From assembly GCA_002099625.1 (NCBI GenBank), contig GCA_002099625.1_4857.1: 64,000 nt of DNA; one strand, written 5' to 3'. Numbering within the stretch: position 1 is the first letter of the stretch; every line of letters begins with the position of its first letter. A model generated the notes under the pieces. It was not told the origin of the DNA. It did no database searches and saw nothing but the letters and a program-made list of their open reading frames with translations. Source of the stretch: Escherichia coli (GTDB lineage: Bacteria > Pseudomonadota > Gammaproteobacteria > Enterobacterales > Enterobacteriaceae). Both the position numbers and the translations under genes were made by a program. Positions 2,458 to 63,974 of the stretch are shown piece after piece.

Positions 2458-2490
2458 CACCTAGGTAATATATATCTGAAATTATTTTTA
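2458..2490 (-). promoter_or_regulatory. conserved promoter-like element (long form), copy 1
   Basis: plus-strand CACCTAGGTAATATATATCTGAAATTATT, near-identical to the copy at 10963-10992; ~55 nt upstream of the minus-strand start at 2405; minus-strand reading contains TATATTAC. Confidence 0.5.
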
Positions 2491-2512
2491 TTCAGAGTAC
2501 ACCCTCTATAAC

Positions 2513-2603
2513 GCTCTCAAACGCGTTTTGAGAGCTTTTATCACTTTAGAGGGTCGTTCTACCGTTAGAGTGGCTTTAGAAGGTTGTGTGTGCGTTTAGA
2601 GGG
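2513..2603. repeat. intergenic palindrome plus four direct repeats of TTTAGAGGG-like motif
   Basis: palindrome GCTCTCAAA-CGCGT-TTTGAGAGC at ~2513-2535; TTTAGAGGG / GTTAGAGTGG / TTTAGAAGG / TTTAGAGGG at ~2545, 2564, 2575, 2595. Confidence 0.5.
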
Positions 2604-2641
2604 CTAAAATAAAGAGACCTGGTCTCACAAGGAGACCAGGC
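2604..2641 (-). terminator. intrinsic terminator after gene 2648-3445
   Basis: hairpin CCTGGTCTC-ACAAG-GAGACCAGG; minus transcript followed by U-rich tract. Confidence 0.55.
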
Positions 2642-2647
2642 ACACTT

Positions 2648-3445
2648 TTACATCAAATCCAGGCTCTGAGAGACCGCAACTTCCGGTTCACTGATGCCGC
2701 TGGTCACTGACAATGTAAAGCGACGATCGTTAATCACTTCAACTGCCTCGCTCGCACGCAGTGAATACTTATCGGCGATTGGCAGTACACTGTTATCGTT
2801 CTGTGGCGGCAGAATCTGTGCCGGGAACGGAATGTACGAGTTGAAAGTGATATACGGACCGACTTGCATCATCGGGAACACTTCGTTCACGTTATTCGAC
2901 ATCCCTTCATCCGAAGAGATAACGGAGTGACGCAGACAGGCACGCAAGCCAACGGTGTACTCCGGATCGCGCGATTCGCCGATCAGTGCGAAACGGAACA
3001 CGTTGAAATCGTAGTCGTCTGCAGCGAAGTGTTCTGGCAGGATACGCTGTACGTATTCAGGGTAAGTGGTCACGTCACCCGGAATAACATTCACGGCGAG
3101 TTTCTGTGCCAGGAAATACGCATTCGCGAAACCGTACTGCCCCGCCAGCGCAGCTGATATCGGTGCAGTGGTTACGCAGTGCAGGAACAAGTGATAACCC
3201 AGCCCGCCTTTATCTTCGATTGCCAGGTCCTTCTTACTCTGCACACCGTCAGCAGTATAAATAACTGCCACTGTTTTATCCAACGTTGATGCCATGACAA
3301 AATCCAACTGCACCTCACCGCTTTGCGGCAGTACCTTAACCAGGCGATCCCAGAGCTTGGTCGGTTTGGTGAAGTTAGCGGCTTCGTACGCATCAATGTC
3401 GAGAACAGTTTGGCCGGTCATGCGAAAGGTGTGAATCGCTTTCAT
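2648..3445 (-). CDS. hypothetical protein
   Basis: 265-aa ORF with coding-like composition; no recognisable motif. Confidence 0.65.
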   Translation of the reverse strand: MKAIHTFRMTGQTVLDIDAYEAANFTKPTKLWDRLVKVLPQSGEVQLDFVMASTLDKTVAVIYTADGVQSKKDLAIEDKGGLGYHLFLHCVTTAPISAALAGQYGFANAYFLAQKLAVNVIPGDVTTYPEYVQRILPEHFAADDYDFNVFRFALIGESRDPEYTVGLRACLRHSVISSDEGMSNNVNEVFPMMQVGPYITFNSYIPFPAQILPPQNDNSVLPIADKYSLRASEAVEVINDRRFTLSVTSGISEPEVAVSQSLDLM

Positions 3446-3488
3446 TGCAATATTTTCCTTAAGGTTACTTACGGGTCATACTAGATGA

Positions 3489-4802
3489 CTAAGCTGTAAA
3501 TTTTTCATCTTTGAGCCAAAGACTCAGTTGTGATTGGGTGTTATAGCGTCCTGATGCCATCGTTTGACCGTCGACAGCAGACTGGAACACTTCACCCACC
3601 AACGTGCCGTAGCGGGTATAGACCCCATACTCGTTGGCAAAAACGTATTTTACTGGCATACCGGGATATAGGATGCCGTGCGTTGATCGGTTCCAGGTTG
3701 TTTGCACAATCGTACCCAGACCCATCTCCAGTTTAGACCGCTGTGGTTTATCGGTATCGCTAAAGTGCTTATCAGGATCGATTGGTGCGTTAACCACACC
3801 ACCTGGATACGCAGCAGGGTCGGCCTGTGCCACAAATTTATCAGGTGTGGTCATACTGATGTCGCCAGGCGTAAATGAACTACTACGCCCATCCAACACA
3901 CGTACAGACCCTACCCGGTAACCCGTACCCTGGTTAAGCGCGGCCTGGTCACGGTATTCCAAACTACTGGTGTCGCCGCCACAAATCAGATAGATAACAT
4001 TACCCGCGATATCGGTGGTGCGGTCAATGTGAGCAGCCTGTTCACGAGGCAAGTTATAAATGACCAGTTTAGGCTTCGTTGTGTTATTAAACTTCAACGA
4101 GTCCCAAGGTCGATACAGATACCATCGTTGTAGGTATTGGAAGACCCCAATACCTTTGCTGTAAACACCGTAATGGTTCTGCAGATAATCAAACACGCTT
4201 AAGAAGTCTTCGGAGTCTGGTATAACGATGTCCCGATATGCCTGCTGTTCTTCTTCATCGTATTCAATCCCTTTCAACTGCCCCTCTGCAGCCACCCCTT
4301 CCGGCAACGTATCCGCCAATATCGAGCGAGCCACTGTTAACCCATCTGTTTCGTGGTAGATGCCGCCCACTTGACGATTACGCAGGAACCACATCGACTC
4401 ATCCATCAGCTCCAATGTTACCAATGCGATAGATTTCTCATCAGACTGACTCAAGAACATCGTCGGTGATTCCGCGTTGTGGTCGCGGTTATTTATCACG
4501 ATGCCGCGGTAGTTAAAGACCCCTGCGATTTTCTGTCCACGACGCAGTAACAGCTTTACCTTCAAATCCCCTTCTGCGGACGATGTGATCATTCGCATGT
4601 GGCTGTAGGGGATAGCCAAGGTGAGATGTGTCAATAAACAGATATCACGCGTAAAGTGACCGGTGTGAATGATAGACAGCATCTTCAACACCGTCACTGG
4701 GGCACCGTGCACCGTGAGGAATATCCCGTAGTCGATAGCCGGTAACCCCCGAGCATTAGCGATGTGACCGTTCGCCATCTGTTGTAACCGACCAAACGAC
4801 AT
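3489..4802 (-). CDS. hypothetical protein
   Basis: 437-aa ORF; start-stop overlap with the downstream gene. Confidence 0.65.
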   Translation of the reverse strand: MSFGRLQQMANGHIANARGLPAIDYGIFLTVHGAPVTVLKMLSIIHTGHFTRDICLLTHLTLAIPYSHMRMITSSAEGDLKVKLLLRRGQKIAGVFNYRGIVINNRDHNAESPTMFLSQSDEKSIALVTLELMDESMWFLRNRQVGGIYHETDGLTVARSILADTLPEGVAAEGQLKGIEYDEEEQQAYRDIVIPDSEDFLSVFDYLQNHYGVYSKGIGVFQYLQRWYLYRPWDSLKFNNTTKPKLVIYNLPREQAAHIDRTTDIAGNVIYLICGGDTSSLEYRDQAALNQGTGYRVGSVRVLDGRSSSFTPGDISMTTPDKFVAQADPAAYPGGVVNAPIDPDKHFSDTDKPQRSKLEMGLGTIVQTTWNRSTHGILYPGMPVKYVFANEYGVYTRYGTLVGEVFQSAVDGQTMASGRYNTQSQLSLWLKDEKFTA

Positions 4803-5341: not shown

Positions 5342-5343
5342 TA

Positions 5344-8176: not shown

Positions 8177-8211
8177 TAGCTGTCCCTCGTTGTAGTCATA
8201 TCACTGGCCTA

Positions 8212-8246: not shown

Positions 8247-8253
8247 TCGTGTT

Positions 8254-8583: not shown

Positions 8584-8584
8584 T

Positions 8585-9551: not shown

Positions 9552-10097
9552 TCATTGAACCATACGCTGCGCGTCGTAAGACGGTGCGAGGTTCACAACA
9601 CGACCATGTAGAGTTTGCTCTGCTTCGTCTAACAGGTCATCGCGTACGAGCGTCTGGCGAATGTAAAGCGTTGCCCGTATCCCCTCAGCGCTGTAAGGCG
9701 CGGTGACCATTTTGGTCTGGTAACCTTCAATCGTCACCGGAACACGCTCGCCATTACGACGAACAAAATGCTCCAGCTTACCGTAATCGTGACTGCAGAC
9801 TTTAGACATGTCAGACAATCCCGCATCGATTAAGTATTTCCAAAGACTGACGATGCCTTCTGAGCAATGTTTGTTAAGTTCACCTTCGACGACAAACTCG
9901 TACCCACCGTACGTTAGAATGTGCGTGCCTGCTGAACGACGGTCACATTCTAAAATGAACACGCCCAGACCAATCATAACCGGACGTGGGATTGTCATGA
10001 CACTGGTACTAAATTGCAGCGTAGTAACCTCATCCCAAAGGGGCGATGATTTGTCGTTGCTTACACTAATAACATCTTTGAGATTGACACGTTTCAT
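9552..10097 (-). CDS. hypothetical protein
   Basis: 181-aa ORF. Confidence 0.6.
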   Translation of the reverse strand: MKRVNLKDVISVSNDKSSPLWDEVTTLQFSTSVMTIPRPVMIGLGVFILECDRRSAGTHILTYGGYEFVVEGELNKHCSEGIVSLWKYLIDAGLSDMSKVCSHDYGKLEHFVRRNGERVPVTIEGYQTKMVTAPYSAEGIRATLYIRQTLVRDDLLDEAEQTLHGRVVNLAPSYDAQRMVQ

Positions 10098-10155
10098 TAT
10101 AAATACTCCTTACGATTAATGGTCGATTACATACGGTTTCAGGCTAACGTAATAT

Positions 10156-10917
10156 TTACGCTGCTGGTTCTTCAGCGGTTTTCACTTCAACTGGTTTCAT
10201 CAACGAGTTCGCACAGTCGAAGATAGCATCCAGGAAACCACGGAACGGCTTCATGGCTTCACGCTGGGCGTTCTGACGTTCTTCTTCAATTGCTTCTTCT
10301 TGCGCCTGAATTTCTTCAGCAGTCAGCTCTGGGTGTTCCGTCATGCTTTCTGCCAGGGTCATCACTTTCGGCTGCGCATTCAGAATCGGAATACGGCGGA
10401 TGACCTTGGTGATATTCCCGAGCTTCATGCCACCCAGCATGGTATCGAACAGCGTACCGAAATCTTGCAGTGGGTCTTCGCTGATTTCCAGTACCGCCGG
10501 AGTCGCAACCAGACCAAAGGCAATGACCAATTCAACGGCAGTGTCAGTGACGTGCGCAGCGAACGGGGTGTCTTCCATCTGCAGGTAATTGTTGCCATTA
10601 TAGGTCACCGGAATGAATTTGATTTCTTCCCCTTTCTTCAGTCGCAGTGTATCGACTGCGGCTTTGTACTGAACTTCGTACAGTTCCGGTTTAACACCGT
10701 CAACGTTATCCAGTGTAAAGAGCAGGTCACCAACCGCCATACGGCGCGGCAGTTTGCGTTTGTTGATTTCGCGCAGCCAGACTTGTAAGCCGGTGAATTG
10801 AATTGGGGACAGTCTAATTTTAAAGCCGTTGGTTGCTTGCAGGATAGCACCGTCGTCTTCGCTACGTTCGATAGAGCCATTAGCCAGAGTAAGCAGATTG
10901 ATAGTTTTCATTTTCAT
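10156..10917 (-). CDS. hypothetical protein, first gene downstream of a conserved promoter-like element
   Basis: 253-aa ORF; acidic C-terminal region; promoter-like element ~45 nt upstream. Confidence 0.65.
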   Translation of the reverse strand: MKMKTINLLTLANGSIERSEDDGAILQATNGFKIRLSPIQFTGLQVWLREINKRKLPRRMAVGDLLFTLDNVDGVKPELYEVQYKAAVDTLRLKKGEEIKFIPVTYNGNNYLQMEDTPFAAHVTDTAVELVIAFGLVATPAVLEISEDPLQDFGTLFDTMLGGMKLGNITKVIRRIPILNAQPKVMTLAESMTEHPELTAEEIQAQEEAIEEERQNAQREAMKPFRGFLDAIFDCANSLMKPVEVKTAEEPAA

Positions 10918-10962
10918 ATTCCTTAAGTAATGGTCAGTTAGTAAAGCAAATCATTGTTTGCT

Positions 10963-10992
10963 CACCTAGGTAATATATATCTGAAAATTATT
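10963..10992 (-). promoter_or_regulatory. conserved promoter-like element (long form), copy 2
   Basis: plus-strand CACCTAGGTAATATATATCTGAAAATTATT; ~45 nt upstream of the minus-strand start at 10917. Confidence 0.5.
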
Positions 10993-11001
10993 GTAATCGG
11001 A

Positions 11002-38262: not shown

Positions 38263-38292
38263 TCGTAAATGCTCCTTTTGGTTACCTCGGTA

Positions 38293-38307
38293 AGATAATA
38301 TCTATCT
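38293..38307 (-). promoter_or_regulatory. conserved promoter-like element (short form) upstream of the RNAP beta-like gene
   Basis: plus-strand AGATAATATCTATCT ~35 nt upstream of the minus-strand start at 38262; also ~20 nt upstream of the plus-strand gene at 38329. Confidence 0.5.
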
Positions 38308-38328
38308 GTTTTATTTTAAGGAGAGACG

Positions 38329-41782: not shown

Positions 41783-43417
41783 TTAAGAATTAAACCATTC
41801 AACTTCTTCTAACTTGCGACGTGCATTCAACACCATAAACTCCGCCAGGCTATTGTGCAGTGACAAGTGAGGTATATAGTTTGGCTGATCCGTCTCACAC
41901 TTCAGCAGCGCAGCTGCTTCTGGTGTAGCCCTGAGATGGAACAGATACGGGTTGATGTGATCCTTGTGTAACAAGGTCAGTGATTCCCGTGGTGTAGATT
42001 GCGGTTCGAGATTACGCGGGTTGCGATACTCCTGAAGATAATATCTATCTAAATCTGCTTTGAGTTCAGATCGAATTGGGTCGGCTGCATAACCGGCAGA
42101 CATCTCAGAACGCACCATATTGCAACTTAACAGTTGCGCAACGTCATACATTCCATAATTGAGATAAGTTGCCTGTGCCAACGCCATACCGTAGCGAAAC
42201 GCTTCTGGCCCACATTCAGTATACGTCTTATAATGCGCGCTACGATGGAGTGCTAATGCGACTAACCATTCGTGCAACGTATAGACAGGACCGTCATGTG
42301 TTGCCAGTTGCGAATCAATCAATAACTTAACATCTGCTGGAGCGGCATTATCCAGACGCATTGTTTTCAAGAAAGAGCGGTATTCTTTAAATACGTACTC
42401 GGTACGGACGTATTCTTTCATCTGTGCAGGAGAACGTGCCTGCACCAAATCCATGGCGTTTATCTTACCCTTTTCGCCATTGAATACCACACTTTCCGGA
42501 TGCGCTTTTAACAGCACCGGCTGGTTAGAGATTTTGTTTGCAAAACCTGTTTCAATCTCTTGTTTAACCAGAAAATACATGCCGGTGACGATATTGTTGT
42601 TAACCATGATTTCAACCGGTAATTCACCACCGACTTCACGGACAGCCAACAATTTAATAATAGCATACGCCAGGATATAATCTTCCATCATATCCGTGCC
42701 ATAGCCCCGCACCGTAGCCAGTACCGACAAACTGGTGCTGTTCGTACCTTTGTTTGCCAGTTCTTTTTCTACCTTTTCCATCACTGTCTGTAGGAACCCA
42801 CGCAGTTTCGGAATAGCAGGTAAAGACATGACTTCCGTGTCTTGAAGCATCTCCAGACAGTATGTCAGATTGTACACCATTTTCCGGTGTGTTTCGATTG
42901 GCAAGTTCTTACCTATCGGGAACGTCCCCATGGTGAGGAACACCGGAATATACGGTTTAATCATCAGAACCAGTATCAACAACTCGTAATAGTCCGGACG
43001 AATGTACGTCATCGCTTCCGGATAATTACTGTTCATTTCATCGTGCGTATCTTCCATGTTCTGCGGAATCCACAGCTTATCGATGGGATACAGCTTACGA
43101 TACACTTCGGCCTTGTGGAACTTCGCAATCGTCTGCACAATCTTCGGCATGTGCTTACGCTGCGTTTCCGTCGATTCGTTTGCCAGCTCGTCCAGCATCA
43201 GATACGCCATGAACAGTTCATCTTGTTCGTCTGGCGTTAAATAATCCCACACGCGTTGTAATTCCATGAAGAGAATGTTGTCGCGTGCAATCTGTTTACC
43301 TTTAACAGTGATGTAGTCGGGTGCGTTGTTATCCTTCCGATAACGTAAGCCAATAAATGTGACCTCTTGACCGTGATGCTCGATTGTCATCCGGTCTTTA
43401 ATCTTCGTAATTTTCAT
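41783..43417 (-). CDS. hypothetical protein
   Basis: 544-aa ORF, first gene downstream of a promoter-like element. Confidence 0.65.
   Translation of the reverse strand: MKITKIKDRMTIEHHGQEVTFIGLRYRKDNNAPDYITVKGKQIARDNILFMELQRVWDYLTPDEQDELFMAYLMLDELANESTETQRKHMPKIVQTIAKFHKAEVYRKLYPIDKLWIPQNMEDTHDEMNSNYPEAMTYIRPDYYELLILVLMIKPYIPVFLTMGTFPIGKNLPIETHRKMVYNLTYCLEMLQDTEVMSLPAIPKLRGFLQTVMEKVEKELANKGTNSTSLSVLATVRGYGTDMMEDYILAYAIIKLLAVREVGGELPVEIMVNNNIVTGMYFLVKQEIETGFANKISNQPVLLKAHPESVVFNGEKGKINAMDLVQARSPAQMKEYVRTEYVFKEYRSFLKTMRLDNAAPADVKLLIDSQLATHDGPVYTLHEWLVALALHRSAHYKTYTECGPEAFRYGMALAQATYLNYGMYDVAQLLSCNMVRSEMSAGYAADPIRSELKADLDRYYLQEYRNPRNLEPQSTPRESLTLLHKDHINPYLFHLRATPEAAALLKCETDQPNYIPHLSLHNSLAEFMVLNARRKLEEVEWFNS
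42035..42049 (-). promoter_or_regulatory. intragenic copy of the conserved promoter-like element
   Basis: AGATAATATCTATCT inside the coding region of gene 41783-43417. Confidence 0.3.
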
Positions 43418-43451
43418 TATAGTTGAACTCCGCGAATAGTCGATTGCACTG

Positions 43452-43466
43452 AGATAATATCTATCT
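43452..43466 (-). promoter_or_regulatory. conserved promoter-like element (short form)
   Basis: AGATAATATCTATCT ~35 nt upstream of the minus-strand start at 43417. Confidence 0.5.
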
Positions 43467-43511
43467 CAATCTTCTTACAGTGTGTGTTGCAGGACCACGC
43501 ATAAGCGTTAA

Positions 43512-48247: not shown

Positions 48248-48249
48248 CC

Positions 48250-49660
48250 TCCCTAACTTTCATTAGGGCACAGACCATACCTTAGCCATGAGCTTTCGCT
48301 TTTAGGCTCCTCCCCACTTCGGCGCTATTCTAAGCACCTACGAGCATTTCAGCTCCGGTCGTTGAACGTTCCTCTTACGAGGCTTCGCTGCTGATTACCC
48401 ATTGTTAAAACCCTTAGCAGTATTGTTTAGCATAGGTCATCTCATTACTTGTTTCCGACTTTCGTCTCCACATGGGCAAATGAGCTTTAGGGGTTCCCAG
48501 CAATTCAGGGAGATACACATCAGAGGTTTCCCGTCTGATGGGGCAAGGTTATTCTGCTGTTAAATATTGAACTTCAAATTGTTTGTACTTTCCAGTTTGT
48601 GAGACTGCTTTGGCCACAGTGTTTCTTTTCACACCAATCGCGTTTGAAAACTCTTGTAGAGAATTCCAAATGGTTTTGATATTAGTGGTCGTATCAGTCA
48701 CACGCACCATCGATGGTACACGTTTTGGCATTTGTGATTGTGGTCTGGGTTTGCGGAGATCGATCATGTCGGTTATGGCAACATCGATATCCACCATATA
48801 CCACGCCTCATATCCAAACTTAGTCAAATCGACGGTACCGCCGTTGAGGTGAGAATAGATGAGGTGTGGTTTTATACCCACGTATTCGGCTGCTGCCGGT
48901 ACAGACGAGAACAGGAAATATGGTTCCTTACCAACCTTTCTGATGACCAGTCCTTTATTACCTGGTCCTGAGTTCTTGCCAATAGAATTCTTGGTGAGAA
49001 TCCAGTCGTCTGCCGGTAGCTTGACTTCAAACACATCATTTAGCGTGTATTGACGATTAAGTCCACGCGTGATCGAGCTTGAAACCAAGTGCCGATTAAC
49101 GCCGATATACTCAGCTGCCTTAGCCATGCTACGGAACTGAACTATATCGCCGGTCTCGAGATTTCTGACATCGACAATAATGTTGTCAGTTCTTAGACCA
49201 GTATCGAAAGCATGATTAACATTTTCCTTTCGATAACACCACTCAAGGTTTACCACAGATGGATTACTCTTAACACCATCACGATGGTTAACCTCGTCAC
49301 CACATTTATCCAGGAACACAGTCGCAACAATTCGATGTAAATGGGTTTCGTCTTTACAACCGCGCACTCCCAGGTATCCACTTTTGAGAATGAAGACCGG
49401 TAGCGGCATGACCATACCTTTTACTTTACAGTCACCCAATGCATCAACAAAGAGATCACGATAGACTGGGTGTCTGTAATACCCCTTAAAAACATACGAG
49501 GGCTCTAAATCATCGCGTAGTTTCCTACTCAACTTTTCAATAATCACAATTTATTCCCTATTACCAGTCACCGACTAAGAATAAGGAATAGCAGAATAAC
49601 ACTTTTACCGTTAGCCATCTTGATCACACGGTCAGAGATACGCAGCGAACACTGGTTAAC
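48250..49660 (-). mobile_element. putative group I intron with embedded HNH homing endonuclease, interrupting the beta'-N gene (boundaries approximate)
   Basis: conserved beta' sequence is interrupted between ...NPTLVQLSIQ... (exon 1) and ...DFDGDQ... (exon 2); between them an HNH ORF and ~300 nt of hairpin-rich non-coding sequence (48250-48548). Confidence 0.55.
48549..49547 (-). CDS. HNH homing endonuclease with NUMOD-like DNA-binding repeats
   Basis: 332 aa; HNH motif ETHLHRIVATVFLDKCGDEVNHRDGVKSNPSVVNLEW; three repeats of the type AAEYIGVNRHLVSSSITRG / AAEYVGIKPHLIYSHLNGG / FSNAIGVKRNTVAKAVSQTG. Confidence 0.85.
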   Translation of the reverse strand: MIIEKLSRKLRDDLEPSYVFKGYYRHPVYRDLFVDALGDCKVKGMVMPLPVFILKSGYLGVRGCKDETHLHRIVATVFLDKCGDEVNHRDGVKSNPSVVNLEWCYRKENVNHAFDTGLRTDNIIVDVRNLETGDIVQFRSMAKAAEYIGVNRHLVSSSITRGLNRQYTLNDVFEVKLPADDWILTKNSIGKNSGPGNKGLVIRKVGKEPYFLFSSVPAAAEYVGIKPHLIYSHLNGGTVDLTKFGYEAWYMVDIDVAITDMIDLRKPRPQSQMPKRVPSMVRVTDTTTNIKTIWNSLQEFSNAIGVKRNTVAKAVSQTGKYKQFEVQYLTAE

Positions 49661-50974
49661 ATCGGTAACAACTTCATCGATGTACAGCGTTTGAATAGAC
49701 AACTGTACCAGCGTTGGGTTACGTAACGGTATGACCATGATCCCAAGACCGCCTGGGGATTCACGAATCAGTTCTTTAAAGATTTCATCTACAAGCGGGT
49801 CATACTGCATTGCCGCTTTTGCAACGATACGTTCACATTGCCGTGACGAATAACCCCGTCGTAGCAGTTTGTTCTCGATGTGGGTCGACATCAACCCAAC
49901 CATCCAACGCCATGGTGCTTTTAACTTCCAGGCATCGTGTGGTTCTGAGATAGGTGAGATGGTTGCACGACCACCGAACGGGATATGGGTAGAACCCAAT
50001 TTCGCACGATAGTCACCCGGTTTACCTTCCATAGACTCACGACGGAAGTCCATGTGGAAGTATGTTAACTGACGGTTGGCTTTCAAAGCGCGACTAATCA
50101 GAAAACGTGGTTCGATCGCTTTACGCCGCGTATAAAGTAACGCGATATTTTTCACCGCATCGATAGCACCCGTGAACACTGGGTCTACCATGACACCACG
50201 ACGACCTTCCTCAGTAACGATAAGCTTAGAGGAGATTAGCGGTAAGTGTCTTGGGAAGAATGCATGGCGTTGCGTTTCGAATAGCTCCTTCCATTGTAAA
50301 CGTAAGCGTTCACCTTCAGCGGCGTTATGCCGATTAGGTGCGAAGATTTCCTTCCAGGCTTCCGGCGTGGTAAGGATGTTAAAGATACTAACGTGGTTAT
50401 CAACCAGATTGCGCAAGCCACGAACGAAACCGTGTTCTTCCAATACACGTTTCACAGCATGTGCGCGTTTACCGTCTGGTTCTTCTATACGGTAATACGG
50501 GTCAATCATCCACATCATCAAGTCATTACCGCGTTCGATAGTGACCTTGTTACGTTCAAACTTCTTCAACTTGCTATTAAAGAAAGCATTGAACATTGCC
50601 CAGAATCGTGGGTTGACGAAGTTACCCATTTCATCAGGTGCACGTAACCAGACATCGGATTCAATTCGATATTCAGTTACAACATAGCCACACGTCGGAC
50701 ACTTACAACCGAGATTGTAACGATGCGCGATCGGTGCCGGACAATCCAAACTACAAATCGGTGCAGAGTTCAGTTCTTCGTCAACGATTCTGTTCTGTAC
50801 CATGCGATCGATAAGTTCAGCAACTTCGATCGCATCCCCGTTAACGGCGACATCGTTAATAATAGTGGGTGGTTTAATACCTTTGGCAGCAGCTTCTATT
50901 TGCAAATCGGACAAATAGTTATCCTGACTAACCAACCGGCCGGATATTCCGTAGAATTTTGGTACCTTTCTCAC
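49568..50974 (-). CDS. RNA polymerase beta'-N, exon 1 (3' end of the ORF runs into the intron)
   Basis: N-terminal zinc finger CSLDCPAPIAHRYNLGCKCPTCGY; IPLRNPTLVQLSIQ resembles bacterial NRAPTLHRLGIQ; the last ~30 codons of the track ORF are probably intron sequence read in frame. Confidence 0.75.
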   Translation of the reverse strand: MRKVPKFYGISGRLVSQDNYLSDLQIEAAAKGIKPPTIINDVAVNGDAIEVAELIDRMVQNRIVDEELNSAPICSLDCPAPIAHRYNLGCKCPTCGYVVTEYRIESDVWLRAPDEMGNFVNPRFWAMFNAFFNSKLKKFERNKVTIERGNDLMMWMIDPYYRIEEPDGKRAHAVKRVLEEHGFVRGLRNLVDNHVSIFNILTTPEAWKEIFAPNRHNAAEGERLRLQWKELFETQRHAFFPRHLPLISSKLIVTEEGRRGVMVDPVFTGAIDAVKNIALLYTRRKAIEPRFLISRALKANRQLTYFHMDFRRESMEGKPGDYRAKLGSTHIPFGGRATISPISEPHDAWKLKAPWRWMVGLMSTHIENKLLRRGYSSRQCERIVAKAAMQYDPLVDEIFKELIRESPGGLGIMVIPLRNPTLVQLSIQTLYIDEVVTDVNQCSLRISDRVIKMANGKSVILLFLILSR

Positions 50975-51056: not shown

Positions 51057-52910
51057 TTACAGTTTGAAGTTGCTCAGAGACACGCCCAGACCGAAATCGG
51101 AACCGCTTGCAGACAGGCCGTTGCCAGACAGCGTGAAGTCTTCCCCACCGTTGTTGAAGAACAGAGAGGTCGCCATCGTGTTGTAGGCATTTACACCAGT
51201 CATAGACCAGGTGCAGTTGTTACGGACGAAGTCCAGCAGGCATTTACCGAAGATCGGGTTGATAGCCATATCCAGAGATTCACCGGTAGCTTGCGGTGCT
51301 TTGGATGCGAACAGAGAAGCGGCCAGTTTCAGCATGTAGATACGCTGTTGACGCTCGTTCAGTTCACGGTGGCTGTAGGACTGTGCGTTCAGGTAGCTAT
51401 AGACGTCGTTCGCGTTATCACCCAGTTTGGTAACAACGGAAATCAGGTCCATATCCTGGAAGCTACGTTTCTGTGCAGTACCGGTGTAAACACCGGAAAC
51501 AGTCGGTACGGCTGCTTTCACGATGTGGCTGCAATGGATGGTACCATTGAAGGCATCGCCCAGCTGTGCTTTCAGTGCAGAAGCAAATACTGCAGTGAAG
51601 CTGGTCGCTGCAACAACTTCGCCGTTCTGATCACGCGGGGACATGGAATTCAGAATAGCGAGCAGCTGTTTCAGAGAGTTGTCGTAACCGACCGCAATTT
51701 CAGACAGCATAGTAGACAGACCACCCAGACCGTTACCGGCACGATGGCTAACTACCAGTGCTGCTTCACGCGGTGCGAACATATCCAGGCAACCTTCGAT
51801 AGCTTCACGGCTACCGTCGATTTTGGATACATCAGGACGAGCGTCAGCACCCCAGGACAGGTATTCTGCCACACGGGAGAACTTGCGATCTTGTTTGTTC
51901 AGACGTTTCACAAACAGGTCACGCCAGCCACCGATTGCCGCGATTTCTGCAAATGCAGCCAGCAGCAGCAGTTGACGTTCATACGGTGCCATTGCACCTT
52001 CAGTTTGAGAATCGACCAGACTTACTACGATTTCAGCCTGCAGCTGTTTCAGGTCGTAGACGCCGTTAACGACAGGCTTCTGACCGGTGAAACGCATGTT
52101 GACGAAACCAGTACCGGATACACGCGGATACACCTGTACCTGATTGGTGTCCAGCAGAGTCGGAGTGGCGTCGGATACGTTGCTTGGGCTGTGCTCAACG
52201 GTGATTGCGAAATCAGCACGTTGTGCGTGGCCGTTAGCATCCACAACCGCACCATCTTCCAGCGGCATTACTGCAGCCTGATAACGGTCATGCTTACGCA
52301 GGTTCAGCGTACCCAGGTAGCCTGCGATACGACCGAAGATGCCCATCATCATCTGACCCATCAGAGTACGTGCCCACTCAGCATCCAGAACTTTACCCAG
52401 GTCTGGTACGGAGTTGATGATCATGAAGTTCGCATTGGTCAGACCATGCGCTTCCATGATGTTTTTCTGTACTACTGCCAGCACGTCTTTGTTGAACAGT
52501 TCAGTGATGGTGTAGTAGTCTTCCTGGCCGTTGTTGGTAGTTTCTTTCAGACGCAGAGACTGACCGCGTTCAAAGAAGATAATACCGTACAGCCAGTGGC
52601 CCTGCCATTGGCCTGCGACATACGCCGCGGAACCCATTTCGTTACCCACGCCGGCGATGGTGCCCCAGCGGAACGCGTTGAGGTATTCGTTGCTTTTCTT
52701 CAGCTCGTCCAGGAGGTTGACGAAGTGCATTGCATAGGTGCTGATGTTGCGGATGCCAAATGCGTTATCGAATTGGCTGACAGTAGAAGTACCCGGCACA
52801 GCAGTTTGCACTTTTACAGTCTCGTTGCCCAGACCGCCCAGTGGTGCGGTGTCTTGAGTCTGAGTGTTGTTCTGCTGAGCGTTGTTGTTAGAGTCAACGA
52901 TTTTTACCAT
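51057..52910 (-). CDS. hypothetical protein; candidate phage-nucleus shell protein (chimallin-like), speculative
   Basis: 617 aa; low-complexity N- and C-termini; own promoter-like elements and terminator; lies immediately upstream of the beta'-N gene, the arrangement I recall for phiKZ gp54-gp55; no sequence-level verification possible here. Confidence 0.3.
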   Translation of the reverse strand: MVKIVDSNNNAQQNNTQTQDTAPLGGLGNETVKVQTAVPGTSTVSQFDNAFGIRNISTYAMHFVNLLDELKKSNEYLNAFRWGTIAGVGNEMGSAAYVAGQWQGHWLYGIIFFERGQSLRLKETTNNGQEDYYTITELFNKDVLAVVQKNIMEAHGLTNANFMIINSVPDLGKVLDAEWARTLMGQMMMGIFGRIAGYLGTLNLRKHDRYQAAVMPLEDGAVVDANGHAQRADFAITVEHSPSNVSDATPTLLDTNQVQVYPRVSGTGFVNMRFTGQKPVVNGVYDLKQLQAEIVVSLVDSQTEGAMAPYERQLLLLAAFAEIAAIGGWRDLFVKRLNKQDRKFSRVAEYLSWGADARPDVSKIDGSREAIEGCLDMFAPREAALVVSHRAGNGLGGLSTMLSEIAVGYDNSLKQLLAILNSMSPRDQNGEVVAATSFTAVFASALKAQLGDAFNGTIHCSHIVKAAVPTVSGVYTGTAQKRSFQDMDLISVVTKLGDNANDVYSYLNAQSYSHRELNERQQRIYMLKLAASLFASKAPQATGESLDMAINPIFGKCLLDFVRNNCTWSMTGVNAYNTMATSLFFNNGGEDFTLSGNGLSASGSDFGLGVSLSNFKL

Positions 52911-52955
52911 TTTAAATATTCCTTAATAGTGATTGCAATCATAGTTCGGTTCGCA

Positions 52956-52972
52956 GAGATAATATCTGCCTA
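52956..52972 (-). promoter_or_regulatory. conserved promoter-like element (variant) upstream of the 617-aa gene
   Basis: AGATAATATCTGCCTAT ~45 nt upstream of the start at 52910. Confidence 0.45.
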
Positions 52973-53049
52973 TAATTTCATGGAATGCAAGTACGCCGTC
53001 GCTTACTTACAAGGCACATAGTCCAGACATTTCTCAGGAACTGTCACAT

Positions 53050-53064
53050 AGATAATATCAATCT
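53050..53064 (-). promoter_or_regulatory. conserved promoter-like element (variant), second copy in the same intergenic region
   Basis: AGATAATATCAATCT; ~140 nt upstream of 52910 and ~50 nt upstream of the plus-strand gene at 53117. Confidence 0.35.
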
Positions 53065-53116
53065 GAGATATTTTTGACTGTGACTGACTTCCTATGTGGA
53101 ATCTAAGGAGTCTGCC

Positions 53117-56942: not shown

Positions 56943-56946
56943 TACT

Positions 56947-57956: not shown

Positions 57957-57965
57957 TCGTACTCC

Positions 57966-60071: not shown

Positions 60072-60084
60072 GATGTCGCTGGGG

Positions 60085-60648
60085 TCATTCAATATCCTGA
60101 CGTATGCCGTCGAGGCAATGTGATCGATCAGTACCAGACGGACGATATCGTTTGTTTGGGAAGCATTGGCGGTAGTGGATGAATCTGATGTCTTCTCCAA
60201 TTTGTAACTCCAGAGATTGCACCTGCCCACGACGGGTTATGTGTGGTTCCAGTTTAATCGTCGCATAACGATTAAACGGGTGTTTGGCGGCTTTCACAGC
60301 ATTCTCCACAAGTGCATGGATACTGTCCAGGAAACTGTTGTAACAGTCTTCGAATGCCAATCCGATAAGATATTCGGTAGAACGTAAAATCGCTACGGTC
60401 TCCTTCGTCTTATTAACCGGAGTACCCAAACCGCCACTGGAAACGTGTGTACGTTCCACAGGAACTGTTTTCGGTGGAAGTATGATCTGGTCAGCCACCA
60501 ACATCATCGTGAGATTAAAAGCGTCAGTATAAGGTTCCAGCAAAGGTTCCATACGTGCATTAGGCATTTCCGGAACGGAGTAAAAGATATCTTCGAGCGC
60601 AGTGTGTAACAGTTGTACAGTTAACATCTCGCGTTCTTTTTGGCTCAT
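60085..60648 (-). CDS. hypothetical protein
   Basis: track ORF 60085-60846; probable start at internal ATG (MSQKEREML...) that overlaps the TGA of the upstream gene (ATGA). Confidence 0.5.
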   Translation of the reverse strand: MSQKEREMLTVQLLHTALEDIFYSVPEMPNARMEPLLEPYTDAFNLTMMLVADQIILPPKTVPVERTHVSSGGLGTPVNKTKETVAILRSTEYLIGLAFEDCYNSFLDSIHALVENAVKAAKHPFNRYATIKLEPHITRRGQVQSLELQIGEDIRFIHYRQCFPNKRYRPSGTDRSHCLDGIRQDIE

Positions 60649-60965
60649 CCGCAGAGCGGTAGCGTACTGGGAAGCATCGACAGGCCCCCAGAAGCTAGAA
60701 TGAACCGCAGCTGGTTCGAGGTATATTCTGACCACGTTTGCACAACTCCATTTTTGTAATGAAAGGGATAGCGATGGTTTCGGCCCAACGCCGAAATAAC
60801 AAACCACGCTTCCGTGCCAAAATAACTTTCGGCAATGCGTATCCACTCACGTGGAAACTCATGCGTGCCGGGATAAATGACTTCTTGTATCGCGCACAGT
60901 AACATGTCCGCAGGCACAATCAGTTCATTTGTCCCTGGAGAGAAATTAAAGAACATGCGCGTCAT
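60645..60965 (-). CDS. hypothetical small protein, first gene of the array
   Basis: 106-aa ORF ~30 nt downstream of a promoter-like element. Confidence 0.55.
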   Translation of the reverse strand: MTRMFFNFSPGTNELIVPADMLLCAIQEVIYPGTHEFPREWIRIAESYFGTEAWFVISALGRNHRYPFHYKNGVVQTWSEYTSNQLRFILASGGLSMLPSTLPLCG

Positions 60966-60995
60966 CGAGAAATGCTCCTTAAGGATAATTCACGA

Positions 60996-61009
60996 AGATA
61001 ATATCTATG
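60996..61009 (-). promoter_or_regulatory. conserved promoter-like element (variant)
   Basis: AGATAATATCTATG ~30 nt upstream of the minus-strand start at 60965. Confidence 0.45.
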
Positions 61010-61128
61010 CAAAATTTCTTCGAGTATGGTGCGCACATAAAGGTCGTAAAACGTATTTTAATGTCAGGTAATGCTATCCCATTACCCGATGGTATGAGTT
61101 GTCCTACGAGCTTCATAGGAGCCTTAGA

Positions 61129-61941: not shown

Positions 61942-61997
61942 CAAAAAAAGAAAGATTCCGTACCTCTACTCGCGTAGAGGTACTTCTTCTTTTTTAA
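61942..61997. terminator. bidirectional intrinsic terminator
   Basis: hairpin GTACCTCTAC-TCGC-GTAGAGGTAC flanked by CAAAAAAAGAAAG and TTCTTCTTTTTT. Confidence 0.65.
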
Positions 61998-62383: not shown

Positions 62384-62450
62384 CGAGCATCTCCTTTGGA
62401 ATCTATTACAGCACAGACTCCCTACAAGATAGGTGCCTGCCGTAAAAAAG

Positions 62451-62867
62451 TCAGTGTAAGGTTCCGAGGGTTTTATAGTGTTTGTAATTCATTGCGTGGA
62501 TGCTGTCTAACACAATGGCGAATACTTCCTCATAAGGTAGTCGTTTCTGCATAACTGCAGCGCACATCGAATCGAATAAAGAAGGCATTAGCTGCGGCAT
62601 TTCATTTATCGCCGACGATTCGCTACGGGATAAACACTCGCTTGTATTTATTGTTGGTGTGTCTGACCCAGTGTAGATAGCCACAACATCTACCACATCT
62701 AGCGAGTCGAGCCACGGTTGGAATTGAGGCAACTGCATTAGCACTGGAAAAACCTCACTTGCAAGTATTCTCGAATAACTGCACTGCGGTCTTAAAGTCG
62801 TGGGTAACTTATTTTCTTCCAATGCTTTAAATAAATCTTGCGTCTGGTAATAGCACTGCGTAATCAT
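62451..62867 (-). CDS. hypothetical protein
   Basis: 138-aa ORF. Confidence 0.6.
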   Translation of the reverse strand: MITQCYYQTQDLFKALEENKLPTTLRPQCSYSRILASEVFPVLMQLPQFQPWLDSLDVVDVVAIYTGSDTPTINTSECLSRSESSAINEMPQLMPSLFDSMCAAVMQKRLPYEEVFAIVLDSIHAMNYKHYKTLGTLH

Positions 62868-62901
62868 GGTAACTTCCTCCTATAAGATTCTGAGGCAGTC
62901 G

Positions 62902-62940
62902 TGAAAAAAGAAAAAAAAGAGGGAACCGAAGTTCCCTCAA
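62902..62940 (-). terminator. intrinsic terminator after gene 62953-63900
   Basis: hairpin GAGGGAAC-CGAA-GTTCCCTC preceded on plus by CGTGAAAAAAGAAAAAAAAGA, same leader as the terminator at ~56902. Confidence 0.6.
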
Positions 62941-62952
62941 AAGCATCGACTA

Positions 62953-63900
62953 CTAACCAAACTGATTTTCATACGCACGGAGCCATTGCTCATGCGGGAA
63001 TAAATTATAGACCTCTTCGGGAACGTGTAACATCAACCACCTCACGCCAATACTGCTCGCGTACCACGAAGCGTATGGATAGATTGAATCCTTCGGTGGT
63101 GCTAACGGTGATGGTAACTGTTGAACATCGGTGACAGGGTTACCGATAACTTCACCGCCGGGTAGTACAGCCGCTAGCATCCAGGTCGTTGGGTAGTAAT
63201 TACCGCTATCTGTTTTAGCCAGATAACGTAAGTCTAAGTTTTCTGGCTCGAGCTGTTTGCGTAACGTTAAGAACAGGCACAACTCAAACGGTGCGATGTT
63301 CAATCTGGTGTTCGGAAGACTGTGCTCTTTATACCAGTTTGCATAGCCTGCCTGGAGAGCATGGATTGCCAGAATCGGTCTATCCACATCCACAGGTAAC
63401 TGGAGCGGTGTAATGTTCAAATCAGCTACAGTTGGAAACATTACCGGTTCAGGATTGATAAGTTGGTTATACGCTTCCCGTAAACGATTCATCTTGATGC
63501 GCAATGCACCGTTCGTTAACATCAGCCTACGTCCGTGGTTTTCATCTGTAGCCCGTTCCGTAAAGAGTGCATCGCCGAAATGGCGAACGAATTCGATACT
63601 TAAGAACCTGGTGTGGTACGTAGGTGAGGTATACTCAATAAACTCGTTCTGTTGGAATCCGAAGTAGTGGAGCAATTCGCCGTTGCCCCATTTGAACACA
63701 AATCGGAATTCGAAGTTCTTGTACTGCAGTGCATCTTTTACAGCACGTATCGCTTCCCAAGCGTCGAAGTTCGTTCTGTATAACGAACCGAAAGGGAAGA
63801 ATCTGCGAGGTAAGAAAGGTCGAATGCGGGTTGCTTCTGCGAGGCTGAAGCCATCCTGGTTTAATCCTTCAATAGCGCTAGGATTACTTGGTCTGTACAT
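62953..63900 (-). CDS. hypothetical protein
   Basis: 315-aa ORF ~55 nt downstream of a promoter-like element. Confidence 0.65.
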   Translation of the reverse strand: MYRPSNPSAIEGLNQDGFSLAEATRIRPFLPRRFFPFGSLYRTNFDAWEAIRAVKDALQYKNFEFRFVFKWGNGELLHYFGFQQNEFIEYTSPTYHTRFLSIEFVRHFGDALFTERATDENHGRRLMLTNGALRIKMNRLREAYNQLINPEPVMFPTVADLNITPLQLPVDVDRPILAIHALQAGYANWYKEHSLPNTRLNIAPFELCLFLTLRKQLEPENLDLRYLAKTDSGNYYPTTWMLAAVLPGGEVIGNPVTDVQQLPSPLAPPKDSIYPYASWYASSIGVRWLMLHVPEEVYNLFPHEQWLRAYENQFG

Positions 63901-63958
63901 GATGCTTACCTTTTATAGTCGAGTTGGGGGAATTCAGATGAGGCTTTCTCATCTCACT

Positions 63959-63974
63959 TAGATAATATCTATCT
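63959..63974 (-). promoter_or_regulatory. conserved promoter-like element (short form)
   Basis: TAGATAATATCTATCT ~58 nt upstream of the minus-strand start at 63900. Confidence 0.5.

What the first reader, a model, noticed from the sequence alone, without database searches (positions are those of the whole stretch)
2458..63974. Conserved AT-rich promoter-like element found nine times, oriented toward minus-strand genes
A motif with plus-strand core TAATAT[C/A]TATCT occurs in two forms: a short form AGATAATATCTATCT (38293, 42035, 43452, 52956, 53050, 60996, 63959) and a 30-nt form CACCTAGGTAATATATATCTGAAA(A)TTATT (2458, 10963). Eight of the nine copies lie 30-60 nt upstream of a minus-strand start codon; for three of them (43452, 2458, 10963) no plus-strand gene is nearby. 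Read on the minus strand the core is AGATA[G/T]ATATTA, which contains TATATTAC in the long form. This does not look like a sigma70 promoter and is best explained as a promoter for a phage-encoded RNAP; it resembles the AT-rich early promoter consensus I recall for phiKZ-type phages. The plus-strand genes lack it.
Basis: partly seen in the sequence, partly recalled or inferred. Interest (0 to 1): 0.7.

Follow-up and report, generated by a model that had tools for sequence, protein, structure and literature searches.

The report
Early promoters of SPN3US-like jumbo phage
The repeated AT-rich motif is the early-gene promoter of a giant SPN3US-type Salmonella/E. coli phage, the kind already described for phiKZ and its relatives and attributed to the RNA polymerase carried in the virion, so it is real and looks functional but is ordinary for this phage family.

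Summary
Nine same-strand copies of the motif are in the window, against about 0.04 expected by chance. The window is a SPN3US-like (Seoulvirus) jumbo phage.

Read on the minus strand, the motif is a 35-nt asymmetric element: A(-29), TTTCAGATA-K-ATATTA-Y-CT, then 4 nt, then G(+1)A. It nearly matches the published predicted early promoters of OBP and N1M2 (TTTCARRYAKATATTATYWAAGTGWA), 201phi2-1 and phiKZ (TATATTAC), and the mapped AR9 early promoter (…ATATTAT-6N-G+1).

In the complete SPN3US genome a matrix built from the window finds 23 sites. Twenty-two are intergenic in a 94%-coding genome, and all point at the next gene. None precedes a structural gene. They head the operons that hold the chimallin homologue and all five non-virion RNAP subunit genes.

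Five window sites are positionally conserved in five diverged relatives. Two have motif-bearing counterparts in phiKZ, upstream of chmA and gp68.

No start-site data exist for this clade, so which polymerase reads the motif is inferred. Novelty and interest are low.

The parts
63950..63988 (-). Early-promoter site (-33 to +6). Predicted +1 is the G at 63955. Drives ORF 62953-63900 (315 aa, SPN3US gp5 orthologue). The 5' leader is 55 nt.
   Evidence: PWM score 46.6. Sequence. Distance to start. Orthologous SPN3US site at 4413.
60986..61024 (-). Early-promoter site. Predicted +1 at 60991. Drives ORF 60645-60965 (106 aa, gp9 orthologue) and the run of small genes leading to the DNA polymerase gene. 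Leader 26 nt.
   Evidence: PWM 39.8.
53040..53078 (-). Distal member of a tandem promoter pair. Predicted +1 at 53045, 135 nt before the ATG of ORF 51057-52910 (chimallin homologue).
   Evidence: PWM 43.7. Conserved in SPAsTU, phiEaH2, Caitlin, Machina and CR5. Chimallin identity from PMC9365700.
52947..52985 (-). Proximal member of the tandem pair. Predicted +1 at 52952, leader 42 nt. Drives ORF 51057-52910 (617 aa, chimallin/ChmA homologue) followed by an nvRNAP subunit gene (49568-50974, interrupted by an intron).
   Evidence: PWM 31.9. Conserved in five relatives. phiKZ chmA carries the same motif about 60 nt upstream. PHROG RNAP hit for 49568-50974.
43442..43480 (-). Early-promoter site. 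Predicted +1 at 43447, leader 30 nt. Drives ORF 41783-43417 (544 aa), the homologue of phiKZ gp68, the fifth, sigma-like nvRNAP subunit.
   Evidence: PWM 37.4. Homology to PHIKZ068: BLASTP E=1e-13 and PDB 7OGP_B. Conserved in five relatives. phiKZ has the motif upstream of gp68.
42026..42064 (-). Intragenic promoter-like site inside the gp68-like ORF. Predicted +1 at 42031, 261 nt before the ATG (41770) of ORF 40070-41770.
   Evidence: PWM 37.2. Present at the same codons in all five relatives. Codons GAT AGA TAT TAT are invariant in 5 phages, against a 21% baseline of codon invariance at conserved residues.
38283..38321 (-). Early-promoter site in the 66-nt divergent intergenic region. Predicted +1 at 38288, leader 26 nt. 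Drives two nvRNAP subunit genes, 36025-38262 (Rpb2_6 domain) and 33920-36025 (Rpb1_5 domain).
   Evidence: PWM 34.3. Pfam domains. The footprint alignment shows the motif and the RBS as the conserved blocks.
10958..10996 (-). Early-promoter site ('long form'). Predicted +1 at 10963, leader 52 nt. Drives ORF 10156-10911 (251 aa, gp55 orthologue).
   Evidence: PWM 45.4. The orthologous SPN3US site at 56280 is preceded by a strong terminator hairpin.
2453..2491 (-). Early-promoter site ('long form'). Predicted +1 at 2458, leader 53 nt. Drives a 47-aa ORF starting at 2405 (gp66 orthologue) and the small ORFs downstream.
   Evidence: PWM 44.2.
63936..63955 (-). Predicted 5'-terminal stem-loop of the transcript, beginning at +1/+2 (GAGATGAG-AAAGC-CTCATCT).
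   Evidence: MFE -8.7 kcal/mol, z = -3.0 against shuffles. This is an inference that depends on the predicted start site.
10944..10963 (-). Predicted 5'-terminal stem-loop (GAGCAAA-CAATGA-TTTGCTT).
   Evidence: MFE -5.0, z = -1.5. Weak when taken alone.
2441..2458 (-). Predicted 5'-terminal stem-loop (GATAGA-AGACAA-TCTATC).
   Evidence: MFE -5.9, z = -3.7.
2424..2435 (-). Leader element AATCGACTATTA between the 5' hairpin and the RBS. Function unknown.
   Evidence: Exact match. The same element sits 28-30 nt before the ATG at 8 SPN3US genes.
43434..43445 (-). Leader element AATCGACTATTC immediately after the predicted +1.
   Evidence: One mismatch to the pattern. Conserved in SPAsTU and phiEaH2 but not in Caitlin, Machina or CR5.

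Best explanation
The nine sites are early promoters of a SPN3US-like (Seoulvirus, Chimalliviridae-type) jumbo phage. They belong to the same class as the phiKZ, OBP, 201phi2-1 and AR9 early promoters.

Each is a 35-nt asymmetric element on the minus strand of the window. It has an invariant A at -29, a T-rich stretch at -23 to -21, then CAGATA-K-ATATTA-Y-CT from -20 to -5, and G(+1)A(+2).

The inferred mechanism follows phiKZ and AR9. The multisubunit RNA polymerase packaged in the virion and injected with the DNA recognises this element without host sigma factor. It starts at the conserved G, 6 nt after ATATTAY. It transcribes the first wave of genes, which includes the nuclear-shell protein (chimallin) and all subunits of the second, non-virion RNAP. 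That second polymerase then takes over middle and late transcription.

Shown here: the motif, its statistics, its placement, its conservation, and its identity with published consensuses.

Inferred: the start site, the early timing, and recognition by the virion RNAP.
For: 1. Non-random and strand-consistent. Nine hits against 0.04 expected.

2. Genome-wide placement. A matrix seeded from the window finds 23 sites in SPN3US. Twenty-two are intergenic although 94% of the genome is coding (binomial p = 3e-26). All are co-oriented with the next gene, typically 26-59 nt from predicted +1 to the ATG.

3. Information content is 38.6 bits. Invariant positions include A-29 and G+1, so the element is long and asymmetric.

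4. Agreement with the literature.
- N1M2 TBYAWWWWWTTTCARRYAKATATTATYWAAGTGWA, OBP, 201phi2-1 (…TATATTACDWHDGTG) and phiKZ TATATTAC (PMC7058600).
- AR9 AAATATATATTAT-(6N)-G+1, with start sites mapped by dRNA-seq and primer extension and insensitive to chloramphenicol. phiKZ and phiR1-37 also start 6 nt after the consensus (PMC5312081).
- 201phi2-1 and phiKZ early promoters are conserved at -10, -20 and -30 (PMC11512511).
- The Sokolova review states that every RNAP-encoding jumbo phage has such a motif upstream of early operons (PMC7598289).

5. Downstream genes fit the model.
- Sites precede the chimallin homologue (PMC9365700).
- Sites precede all five nvRNAP subunit genes: the gp22-23, gp30, gp34-35 and gp76-77 operons.
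- None of the 21 first-downstream genes is annotated as a virion or other late-function gene (51 such genes counted, endolysin and terminase included), p = 0.009.
- The vRNAP genes themselves have no site in front of them.

6. Phylogenetic footprint. The five sites between 38 and 53 kb sit at orthologous positions in SPAsTU, phiEaH2, Caitlin, Machina and CR5. The one gene compared directly, the gp68-like gene, is only 50-78% identical at the nucleotide level. In the intergenic alignments the motif, the RBS and the start codon are the conserved blocks.

7. Cross-family orthology. The same matrix hits phiKZ upstream of gp68. The motif also lies about 60 nt upstream of phiKZ chmA. chmA early transcription is reported to depend on vRNAP (PMC12571901).

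8. Roughly 10 of 23 sites follow a GC-rich UUCG-loop hairpin within 70 nt, as expected for terminator-to-promoter operon boundaries. Seven of these also have a T-run.
Against: - No 5'-end mapping, time-course RNA data or in vitro transcription for SPN3US or any Seoulvirus was found in the searchable library. The start site, early timing and polymerase identity therefore rest on analogy.
- The AR9 paper notes that no vRNAP of this group had been purified as of 2017. Direct recognition by the virion RNAP is thus not demonstrated even for the reference phages, as far as I could read.
- The core TATTAT at -12 to -7 is a 5/6 match to the sigma-70 -10 hexamer, so weak use by host RNAP is not excluded.
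- The core is partly palindromic (AGATA…TATCT), which leaves room for an additional protein-binding role.
- I could not confirm that the two phiKZ counterparts (chmA and gp68 upstream) are among the experimentally mapped phiKZ early start sites. Ceyssens 2014 and the supplementary tables were not available.
Confidence: 0.85

Rival explanations
1. The motif is a promoter read by the host sigma-70 RNA polymerase, with TATTAT acting as the -10 hexamer.
For: T(-12)A(-11)T(-10)T(-9)A(-8)Y(-7) sits exactly where a -10 hexamer would. It keeps the critical A-11, and T-7 in 16 of 23 sites.
Against: - There is no -35 element. The sigma-70 scan of 36-55 kb finds 22 sites against 25.1 expected and calls none of the motif sites.
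- There is no TG extended -10, because positions -15/-14 are A and K.
- Strong conservation at -20 to -13, -29 and +1/+2 is not what sigma-70 reads.
- The same motif in phiKZ and AR9 works without host RNAP.
Confidence: 0.04
2. The motif is a promoter for the non-virion RNAP (a middle class) rather than for the virion RNAP.
For: Timing was not measured for this phage. In 201phi2-1 some nvRNAP genes are closest to middle or late promoters.
Against: - All five nvRNAP subunit genes lie behind this motif, so nvRNAP cannot be the enzyme that first reads it.
- The published middle and late motifs of phiKZ are different: a weak AT-rich element at -24, and TATG.
- The sequence matches the early class in four other phages.
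Confidence: 0.06
3. The motif is chiefly an operator: a partly palindromic binding site (AGATA-N5-TATCT) for a phage repressor or activator dimer, not the promoter itself.
For: The 15-nt core matches its own reverse complement at 6-10 of 15 positions. The scan picks up weak 'shadow' hits on the opposite strand.
Against: - Conservation is strongly asymmetric. Invariant A-29, the T-rich -23 to -21 stretch and G+1 A+2 have no mirror partners.
- All 23 sites have the same polarity relative to the downstream gene.
- The 'long form' breaks the palindrome (AGATA against AGGTA) yet scores highest.
- A dual role, as promoter plus shut-off site, is not excluded.
Confidence: 0.03
4. The motif is a dispersed mobile or recombinogenic repeat with no primary role in transcription.
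For: A subset forms about 90-nt look-alike cassettes of promoter, hairpin, AATCGACYATTA and RBS in front of small unknown genes.
Against: - Sites are fixed at orthologous positions across genera while the flanks diverge.
- Hairpin sequences differ between copies.
- Sites also precede core genes such as chmA and the nvRNAP genes.
Confidence: 0.02

Closest known systems
Predicted early promoters of Pseudomonas phage OBP and Klebsiella phage N1M2 (PMC7058600, Table 2)
   Same: The sequence is almost identical. N1M2 TTTCARRYAKATATTATYWAAGTGWA compares with this phage's TTTCAGATAGATATTATCTAAGTGAGA. Both have an A/T-rich stretch upstream. N1M2 has about 31 sites per genome against 23 here, placed ahead of non-structural operons.
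   Different: The host range and genus differ (Seoulvirus). Here C at -6 and T at -5 are more fixed. Both sets are bioinformatic predictions without start-site mapping.
phiKZ and 201phi2-1 early promoters (core TATATTAC; 28-32 in phiKZ)
   Same: The ATATTAC core sits at -13 to -7, and conservation extends to -20 and -30. The start is 6 nt after the core. The motif occurs upstream of chmA and gp68 in phiKZ, just as it occurs upstream of their homologues here.
   Different: phiKZ start sites are mapped experimentally and those of this phage are not. Most sites here have GATATTATCT rather than TATATTAC. phiKZ is 37% GC and this phage about 48%, so the element stands out more here.
Bacillus phage AR9 early promoters, AAATATATATTAT-(6N)-G+1 (PMC5312081)
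   Same: It has the same ATATATTAT core and the same 6-nt spacing to a G start. It is read early, without new protein synthesis.
   Different: AR9 has uracil-containing DNA, does not form a nucleus, and is only distantly related. It lacks the CAGATA and -29 A features.
Coliphage N4 virion-RNAP early promoters
   Same: The concept is the same: an injected virion RNAP reads a few dedicated early promoters.
   Different: N4 vRNAP is a single-subunit enzyme that recognises a DNA hairpin (title of Gleghorn et al. 2008, seen only in a reference list; otherwise my own knowledge). The motif here has no hairpin, and the enzyme is a split multisubunit beta/beta' polymerase. It is not a member of that family.
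T4-type 'PeSL' promoter-early stem-loop cassettes (from my own memory of Arbiol et al. 2010; not checked here)
   Same: An early promoter followed immediately by a stem-loop, repeated in front of small genes of unknown function.
   Different: PeSLs are sigma-70 promoters and were proposed as recombination modules. Here the stems differ between copies and the sites are positionally stable. This is a resemblance only.

Membership tests
phiKZ-type (jumbo-phage virion-RNAP) early promoter | The genome encodes two split multisubunit RNAPs, one of them virion-packaged. | tested here: met
   The window is 96-99% identical to SPN3US and EC001. RNAP beta/beta' fragment genes lie in the window. vRNAP is gp42/218/240/241/244, and nvRNAP includes gp35 and gp77, per PMC5105663. 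A gp68 homologue is present.
phiKZ-type (jumbo-phage virion-RNAP) early promoter | A highly conserved AT-rich core of about 10 nt, (T)ATATTA(C/T), centred near -10. | tested here: met
   A-13 T-12 A-11 T-10 T-9 A-8 Y-7 is nearly invariant in 23 of 23 sites. It matches the consensuses.
phiKZ-type (jumbo-phage virion-RNAP) early promoter | A conserved start nucleotide 6 nt downstream of the core. | tested here: inconclusive
   G lies exactly 6 nt after ATATTAY in 23 of 23 sites, followed by A in 20 of 23. The real 5' ends were not measured.
phiKZ-type (jumbo-phage virion-RNAP) early promoter | Additional conservation around -20 and -30. | tested here: met
   C-20 AGATA (-19 to -15), a T-rich stretch at -23 to -21, and an invariant A-29. 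Compare the description for 201phi2-1 and phiKZ.
phiKZ-type (jumbo-phage virion-RNAP) early promoter | Sites are intergenic, co-oriented, ahead of early (non-structural) operons including the nvRNAP genes, and absent from structural and vRNAP genes. | tested here: met
   Twenty-two of 23 sites are intergenic (p = 3e-26). None of 21 first-downstream genes is structural (p = 0.009). Sites lie ahead of the chimallin homologue and all nvRNAP subunit operons.
phiKZ-type (jumbo-phage virion-RNAP) early promoter | Positional orthology with promoters of a reference phage. | tested here: met
   The matrix built from this phage hits phiKZ upstream of gp68 and gp58.1/59, and the motif lies upstream of phiKZ chmA. 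Whether these exact phiKZ sites were mapped experimentally could not be checked.
phiKZ-type (jumbo-phage virion-RNAP) early promoter | Transcripts appear within minutes and are independent of host RNAP (rifampicin) and of new protein synthesis (chloramphenicol). | not testable with these tools
   No transcriptome or primer-extension data for SPN3US-like phages were found.
phiKZ-type (jumbo-phage virion-RNAP) early promoter | Specific initiation by the virion RNAP in vitro. | not testable with these tools
   This needs virion extracts or purified enzyme.
Bacterial sigma-70 promoter | A -35 hexamer (TTGACA-like) 16-18 nt upstream of a -10 hexamer. | tested here: not met
   The scan calls none of the sites, and there is no excess of sigma-70-like sites (22 against 25.1 expected). 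Positions -33 to -28 read yTCnAA.
Bacterial sigma-70 promoter | A -10 hexamer TATAAT at -12 to -7. | tested here: inconclusive
   TATTAT or TATTAC gives 5/6 or 4/6 matches at the right distance from the conserved G.

The most novel reading that the evidence does not exclude
Beyond being a standard early promoter, about half of the sites may form a composite module. The parts are the promoter, a 5'-terminal stem-loop that starts exactly at +1, a conserved leader box AATCGACYATTA placed 28-30 nt before the ATG, and the RBS. The hairpin could be a dedicated mRNA-stabilising cap for transcripts made in the early infection vesicle. The leader box also occurs at a few genes without the promoter. It could be an operator for a phage translational regulator of early genes, in the manner of T4 RegA. 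Neither feature appeared in the jumbo-phage papers I read. I did not search the literature for them specifically.
Probability: 0.15. Interest if true: 0.5.

Novelty: already known. Interest (0 to 1): 0.25.

Why it matters
The main value is for annotation.

- It defines the probable early regulon of SPN3US-type phages: 23 transcription units, 9 of them in this window. These phages are used as a genetic model and as biocontrol or therapy candidates.
- It shows that chimallin and every non-virion RNAP subunit are wired to this promoter.
- It shows that virion-RNAP promoter specificity is conserved almost base for base between this enterobacterial phage and Pseudomonas phage OBP and Klebsiella phage N1M2, with the core shared by phiKZ and 201phi2-1.
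- It gives exact positions for primer extension, reporter constructs or promoter engineering.

It does not reveal a new kind of element.

Tried and rejected
- Sigma-70 reading: the scan found no -35 element and no enrichment.
- TATATTAC alone as the signal: not enriched. Only the extended motif carries the signal.
- Palindromic operator: rejected as the main role because conservation and polarity are asymmetric.
- Mobile-repeat reading: rejected because sites sit at orthologous positions in five relatives.
- Prior description of the SPN3US-clade motif: full-text searches for the sequence strings and for SPN3US, Erwinia or CR5 promoters found nothing specific.
- Key papers not held: Lavysh 2016 (AR9 genome, cited for 'a motif in each RNAP-encoding jumbo phage') and Ceyssens 2014 (phiKZ start sites).
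- Supplementary tables: the phiKZ and 201phi2-1 start-site tables are not held.
- SPN3US proteomic time course: one search found nothing.
- ORF 51057-52910 as chimallin: BLASTP against phiKZ gp54, PDB phmmer, Pfam and NCBIfam gave no significant match. The assignment rests on synteny and on Laughlin 2022, which reports 10% identity.
- AATCGACYATTA with 2 mismatches is not enriched in the window (14 hits against 9.7 expected). Only the 0-1-mismatch copies in leaders are noteworthy.

Full report
**Observation**

The motif is real and far from chance.
- AGATAATATCTATCT with up to two mismatches occurs nine times, always on the plus strand. The positions are 2463, 10968, 38293, 42036, 43452, 52957, 53050, 60996 and 63960. 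Dinucleotide shuffles give 0.04 expected.
- The 12-nt core occurs six times exactly, against 0.00 expected.
- The minus-strand core ATATTAYCT occurs nine times on the minus strand, plus one stray plus-strand copy at 20281, against 0.63 expected.
- TATATTAC alone is not enriched, at 2 hits against 1.4 expected.

Several details need correction. Three coordinates are off by one, and only four 'short-form' copies are exact. Seven of nine sites, not eight, lie 30-60 nt from a start codon. Site 53050 is the distal copy of a tandem pair, 139 nt from the ATG. Site 42036 lies inside a 544-aa ORF.

**What the window is**

- A 10-kb sample is 99% identical to Escherichia phage EC001, Salmonella phage SPN3US and about 25 other Seoulvirus genomes.
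- The whole window aligns to SPN3US 4403-67890 in reverse orientation, at 96-98% identity in four blocks.
- SPN3US is a phiKZ-related jumbo phage. It has a virion RNAP (gp42, gp218, gp240, gp241, gp244) and a non-virion RNAP (PMC5105663).
- Window minus-strand genes are therefore SPN3US plus-strand genes.

**Anatomy of the motif**

Read on the minus strand, the nine sites align over about 35 nt. I built a position matrix from them, scanned the complete SPN3US genome (fetched), and rebuilt the matrix once. This gave 23 sites. The profile is:
- invariant A at -29;
- T-rich at -23 to -21;
- C at -20, then AGATA at -19 to -15;
- K at -14, then ATATTA at -13 to -8;
- Y at -7, C at -6, T at -5;
- four weakly conserved positions;
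- invariant G at the position I call +1, then A in 20 of 23 sites.

Total information is 38.6 bits. The core is partly palindromic (AGATA…TATCT), but the flanking conservation is one-sided.

**Distribution**

- Twenty-two of 23 sites are intergenic in a genome that is 94% coding (binomial p = 3e-26).
- All point at the next gene.
- Predicted leaders fall into two groups: 26-35 nt and 50-59 nt. There are a few longer ones.
- None of the 21 first-downstream genes is among the 51 genes I counted as virion or other late-function genes (p = 0.009).
- All sites lie on one strand. This is only weakly informative, because 231 of 264 genes share that strand (p of about 0.05).
- Roughly 10 of 23 sites are preceded within 70 nt by a GC-rich UUCG-tetraloop hairpin, and seven of these have a T-run. 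This is the expected terminator-then-promoter arrangement at operon boundaries.

**What lies downstream**

In the window:
- The tandem pair (52947-52985 and 53040-53078) heads ORF 51057-52910. This is SPN3US RefSeq gp244, which Laughlin et al. identified as a diverged chimallin (PMC9365700).
  - The 617-aa length fits the RefSeq numbering, not the 240-aa protein called gp244 in the original numbering.
  - It is followed by an nvRNAP subunit gene.
- Site 43442-43480 heads ORF 41783-43417. This is homologous to phiKZ gp68, the fifth nvRNAP subunit (BLASTP E = 1e-13; PDB 7OGP chain B).
- Site 38283-38321 heads two nvRNAP genes, with Rpb2_6 and Rpb1_5 domains.

Outside the window, two more sites head gp76-gp77, and gp77 is the nvRNAP beta N-terminal fragment.

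All five nvRNAP subunit genes and the nuclear-shell gene therefore sit behind this motif. The vRNAP genes, such as window ORF 26617-27915, and the structural genes do not. Because nvRNAP cannot make itself, the enzyme that reads this motif first must already be present at injection.

**Comparison with published promoters**

- PMC7058600 Table 2 lists predicted early promoters:
  - N1M2: TBYAWWWWWTTTCARRYAKATATTATYWAAGTGWA
  - OBP: BSHAWWWWWTTTYARRYAKATATTATYWWADTG
  - 201phi2-1: …TTTRARR_BTATATTACDWHDGTG
  - EL: WTTTYAAACCTACATTATY
  - phiKZ: TATATTAC
  - Site 63950-63988 reads ATTCGCAGATAGATATTATCTAAGTGAGA, which fits the N1M2 and OBP consensus nearly base for base.
- AR9 early promoters were mapped by dRNA-seq and primer extension and are insensitive to chloramphenicol. 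Their consensus is AAATATATATTAT-(6N)-G+1. phiKZ and phiR1-37 likewise start 6 nt after the consensus (PMC5312081). This is exactly the spacing to the invariant G here.
- 201phi2-1 and phiKZ early promoters are conserved at -10, -20 and -30 (PMC11512511).
- The 2020 review states that every RNAP-encoding jumbo phage has such a motif upstream of early operons, and that it proved to be the early promoter wherever tested (PMC7598289).

**Conservation**

I fetched about 42-kb syntenic regions from SPAsTU, phiEaH2, Caitlin, Machina and CR5. In the one gene I compared directly, the gp68-like gene, they are 78%, 62%, 56%, 56% and 50% identical to the window at the nucleotide level.
- The matrix finds a site at each of the five orthologous positions in every phage.
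- In alignments of the three intergenic regions, the conserved blocks are the motif, the ribosome-binding sites and the start codons.
- The intragenic site is also kept. Its codons GAT AGA TAT TAT (D-R-Y-Y) are invariant in five phages. Only 21% of conserved residues keep an invariant codon elsewhere in the gene, and neighbouring conserved residues vary at synonymous sites. This indicates selection on the DNA sequence itself, consistent with an internal promoter for the next gene, which starts at 41770.
- In phiKZ, the matrix built from this phage hits upstream of gp68 and of gp58.1/59.
- The motif (AAAAAAATTTGAGATTTATATTACTAAATTG) lies about 60 nt upstream of phiKZ chmA. Early transcription of chmA is described as vRNAP-dependent (PMC12571901).

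**Rival explanations**

- A sigma-70 reading fails on the -35 element. The scan calls none of the sites and finds no excess of sigma-70-like sites (22 against 25.1 expected). TATTAT at -12 to -7 is still a 5/6 match to a -10 hexamer, so weak host use is not excluded.
- A symmetric operator is contradicted by the one-sided conservation and the uniform polarity.
- A middle (nvRNAP) promoter is contradicted by the placement ahead of all nvRNAP genes and by the sequence match to the early class.
- A mobile repeat is contradicted by the positional orthology.

**Limits**

I found no start-site, time-course or in vitro data for any Seoulvirus. I could not read Lavysh 2016 or Ceyssens 2014. The start site, the timing and the identity of the polymerase are therefore inferences by homology. 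I also could not verify whether the SPN3US logo itself has been printed.

**Verdict**

The element is a member of a well-described class, the early promoters of phiKZ-related jumbo phages attributed to the virion RNAP. Its sequence is essentially the published OBP and N1M2 consensus. Novelty: already known. Interest: low, 0.25.

Three small additions may be worth recording:
- the nine exact window sites and their predicted start points;
- the conserved intragenic promoter inside the gp68-like gene;
- the 5'-terminal hairpins and the AATCGACYATTA leader box that accompany about half of the sites.

Noticed in passing
window 48203-49613 (minus strand): There is a 1.4-kb insertion relative to SPN3US inside an nvRNAP subunit gene (SPN3US gp23 orthologue). 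It contains a group I intron (Rfam RF00028, 48251-48579, 53.4 bits) and an HNH/NUMOD1 homing-endonuclease ORF (48549-49547). SPN3US itself lacks it.
   Followed up: partly
window 2441-2458, 10944-10963, 63936-63955 (minus strand); SPN3US sites: Stem-loops begin exactly at the predicted +1/+2 of the early transcripts. This holds for 3 of 9 window sites and about 11 of 23 genome-wide. Stem sequences differ between sites but pairing is kept (GAGAGTT/AACTCTC, GATAGA/TCTATC, GAGATGAG/CTCATCT). They may be 5'-end stabilisers.
   Followed up: partly
window 2424-2435, 10117-10128, 43434-43445 (minus strand); weaker copies at 10928-10939 and 63913-63924: A leader box AATCGACYATTA sits about 20-30 nt before start codons, usually between the 5' hairpin and the RBS. 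It also occurs at genes without the promoter, such as upstream of ORF 9552-10097. In SPN3US, 8 of the 10 intergenic ATCGAC copies sit 19-54 nt upstream of a start codon, six of them at 28-30 nt. Function unknown.
   Followed up: partly
window 52986-53039 (between the tandem promoters): The block GCGACGGC(G/T)TA is conserved in the window phage and four relatives (not CR5), between the two promoters of the chimallin-homologue gene. It is unexplained.
   Followed up: no
SPN3US 165673-165760 (outside the window; L004): Here an early-promoter site is followed by a 5' hairpin and then by a strong GC-rich hairpin with a T-run, all before the gene start. This could be an attenuator or a short early RNA.
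   Followed up: no
window 38263-38328: The divergent intergenic region is only 66 nt long. The plus-strand gene 38329-38652 starts 8 nt beyond the upstream edge of the minus-strand promoter site. Its own promoter must therefore overlap the motif or lie inside the neighbouring ORF. The arrangement is conserved in all five relatives.
   Followed up: no
window and SPN3US, upstream of most genes: The ribosome-binding context is unusually uniform, (C)TTAAGGAG(T/C)AT. TAAGGAG occurs in 28 of 264 upstream regions, against 0.9 expected.
   Followed up: no
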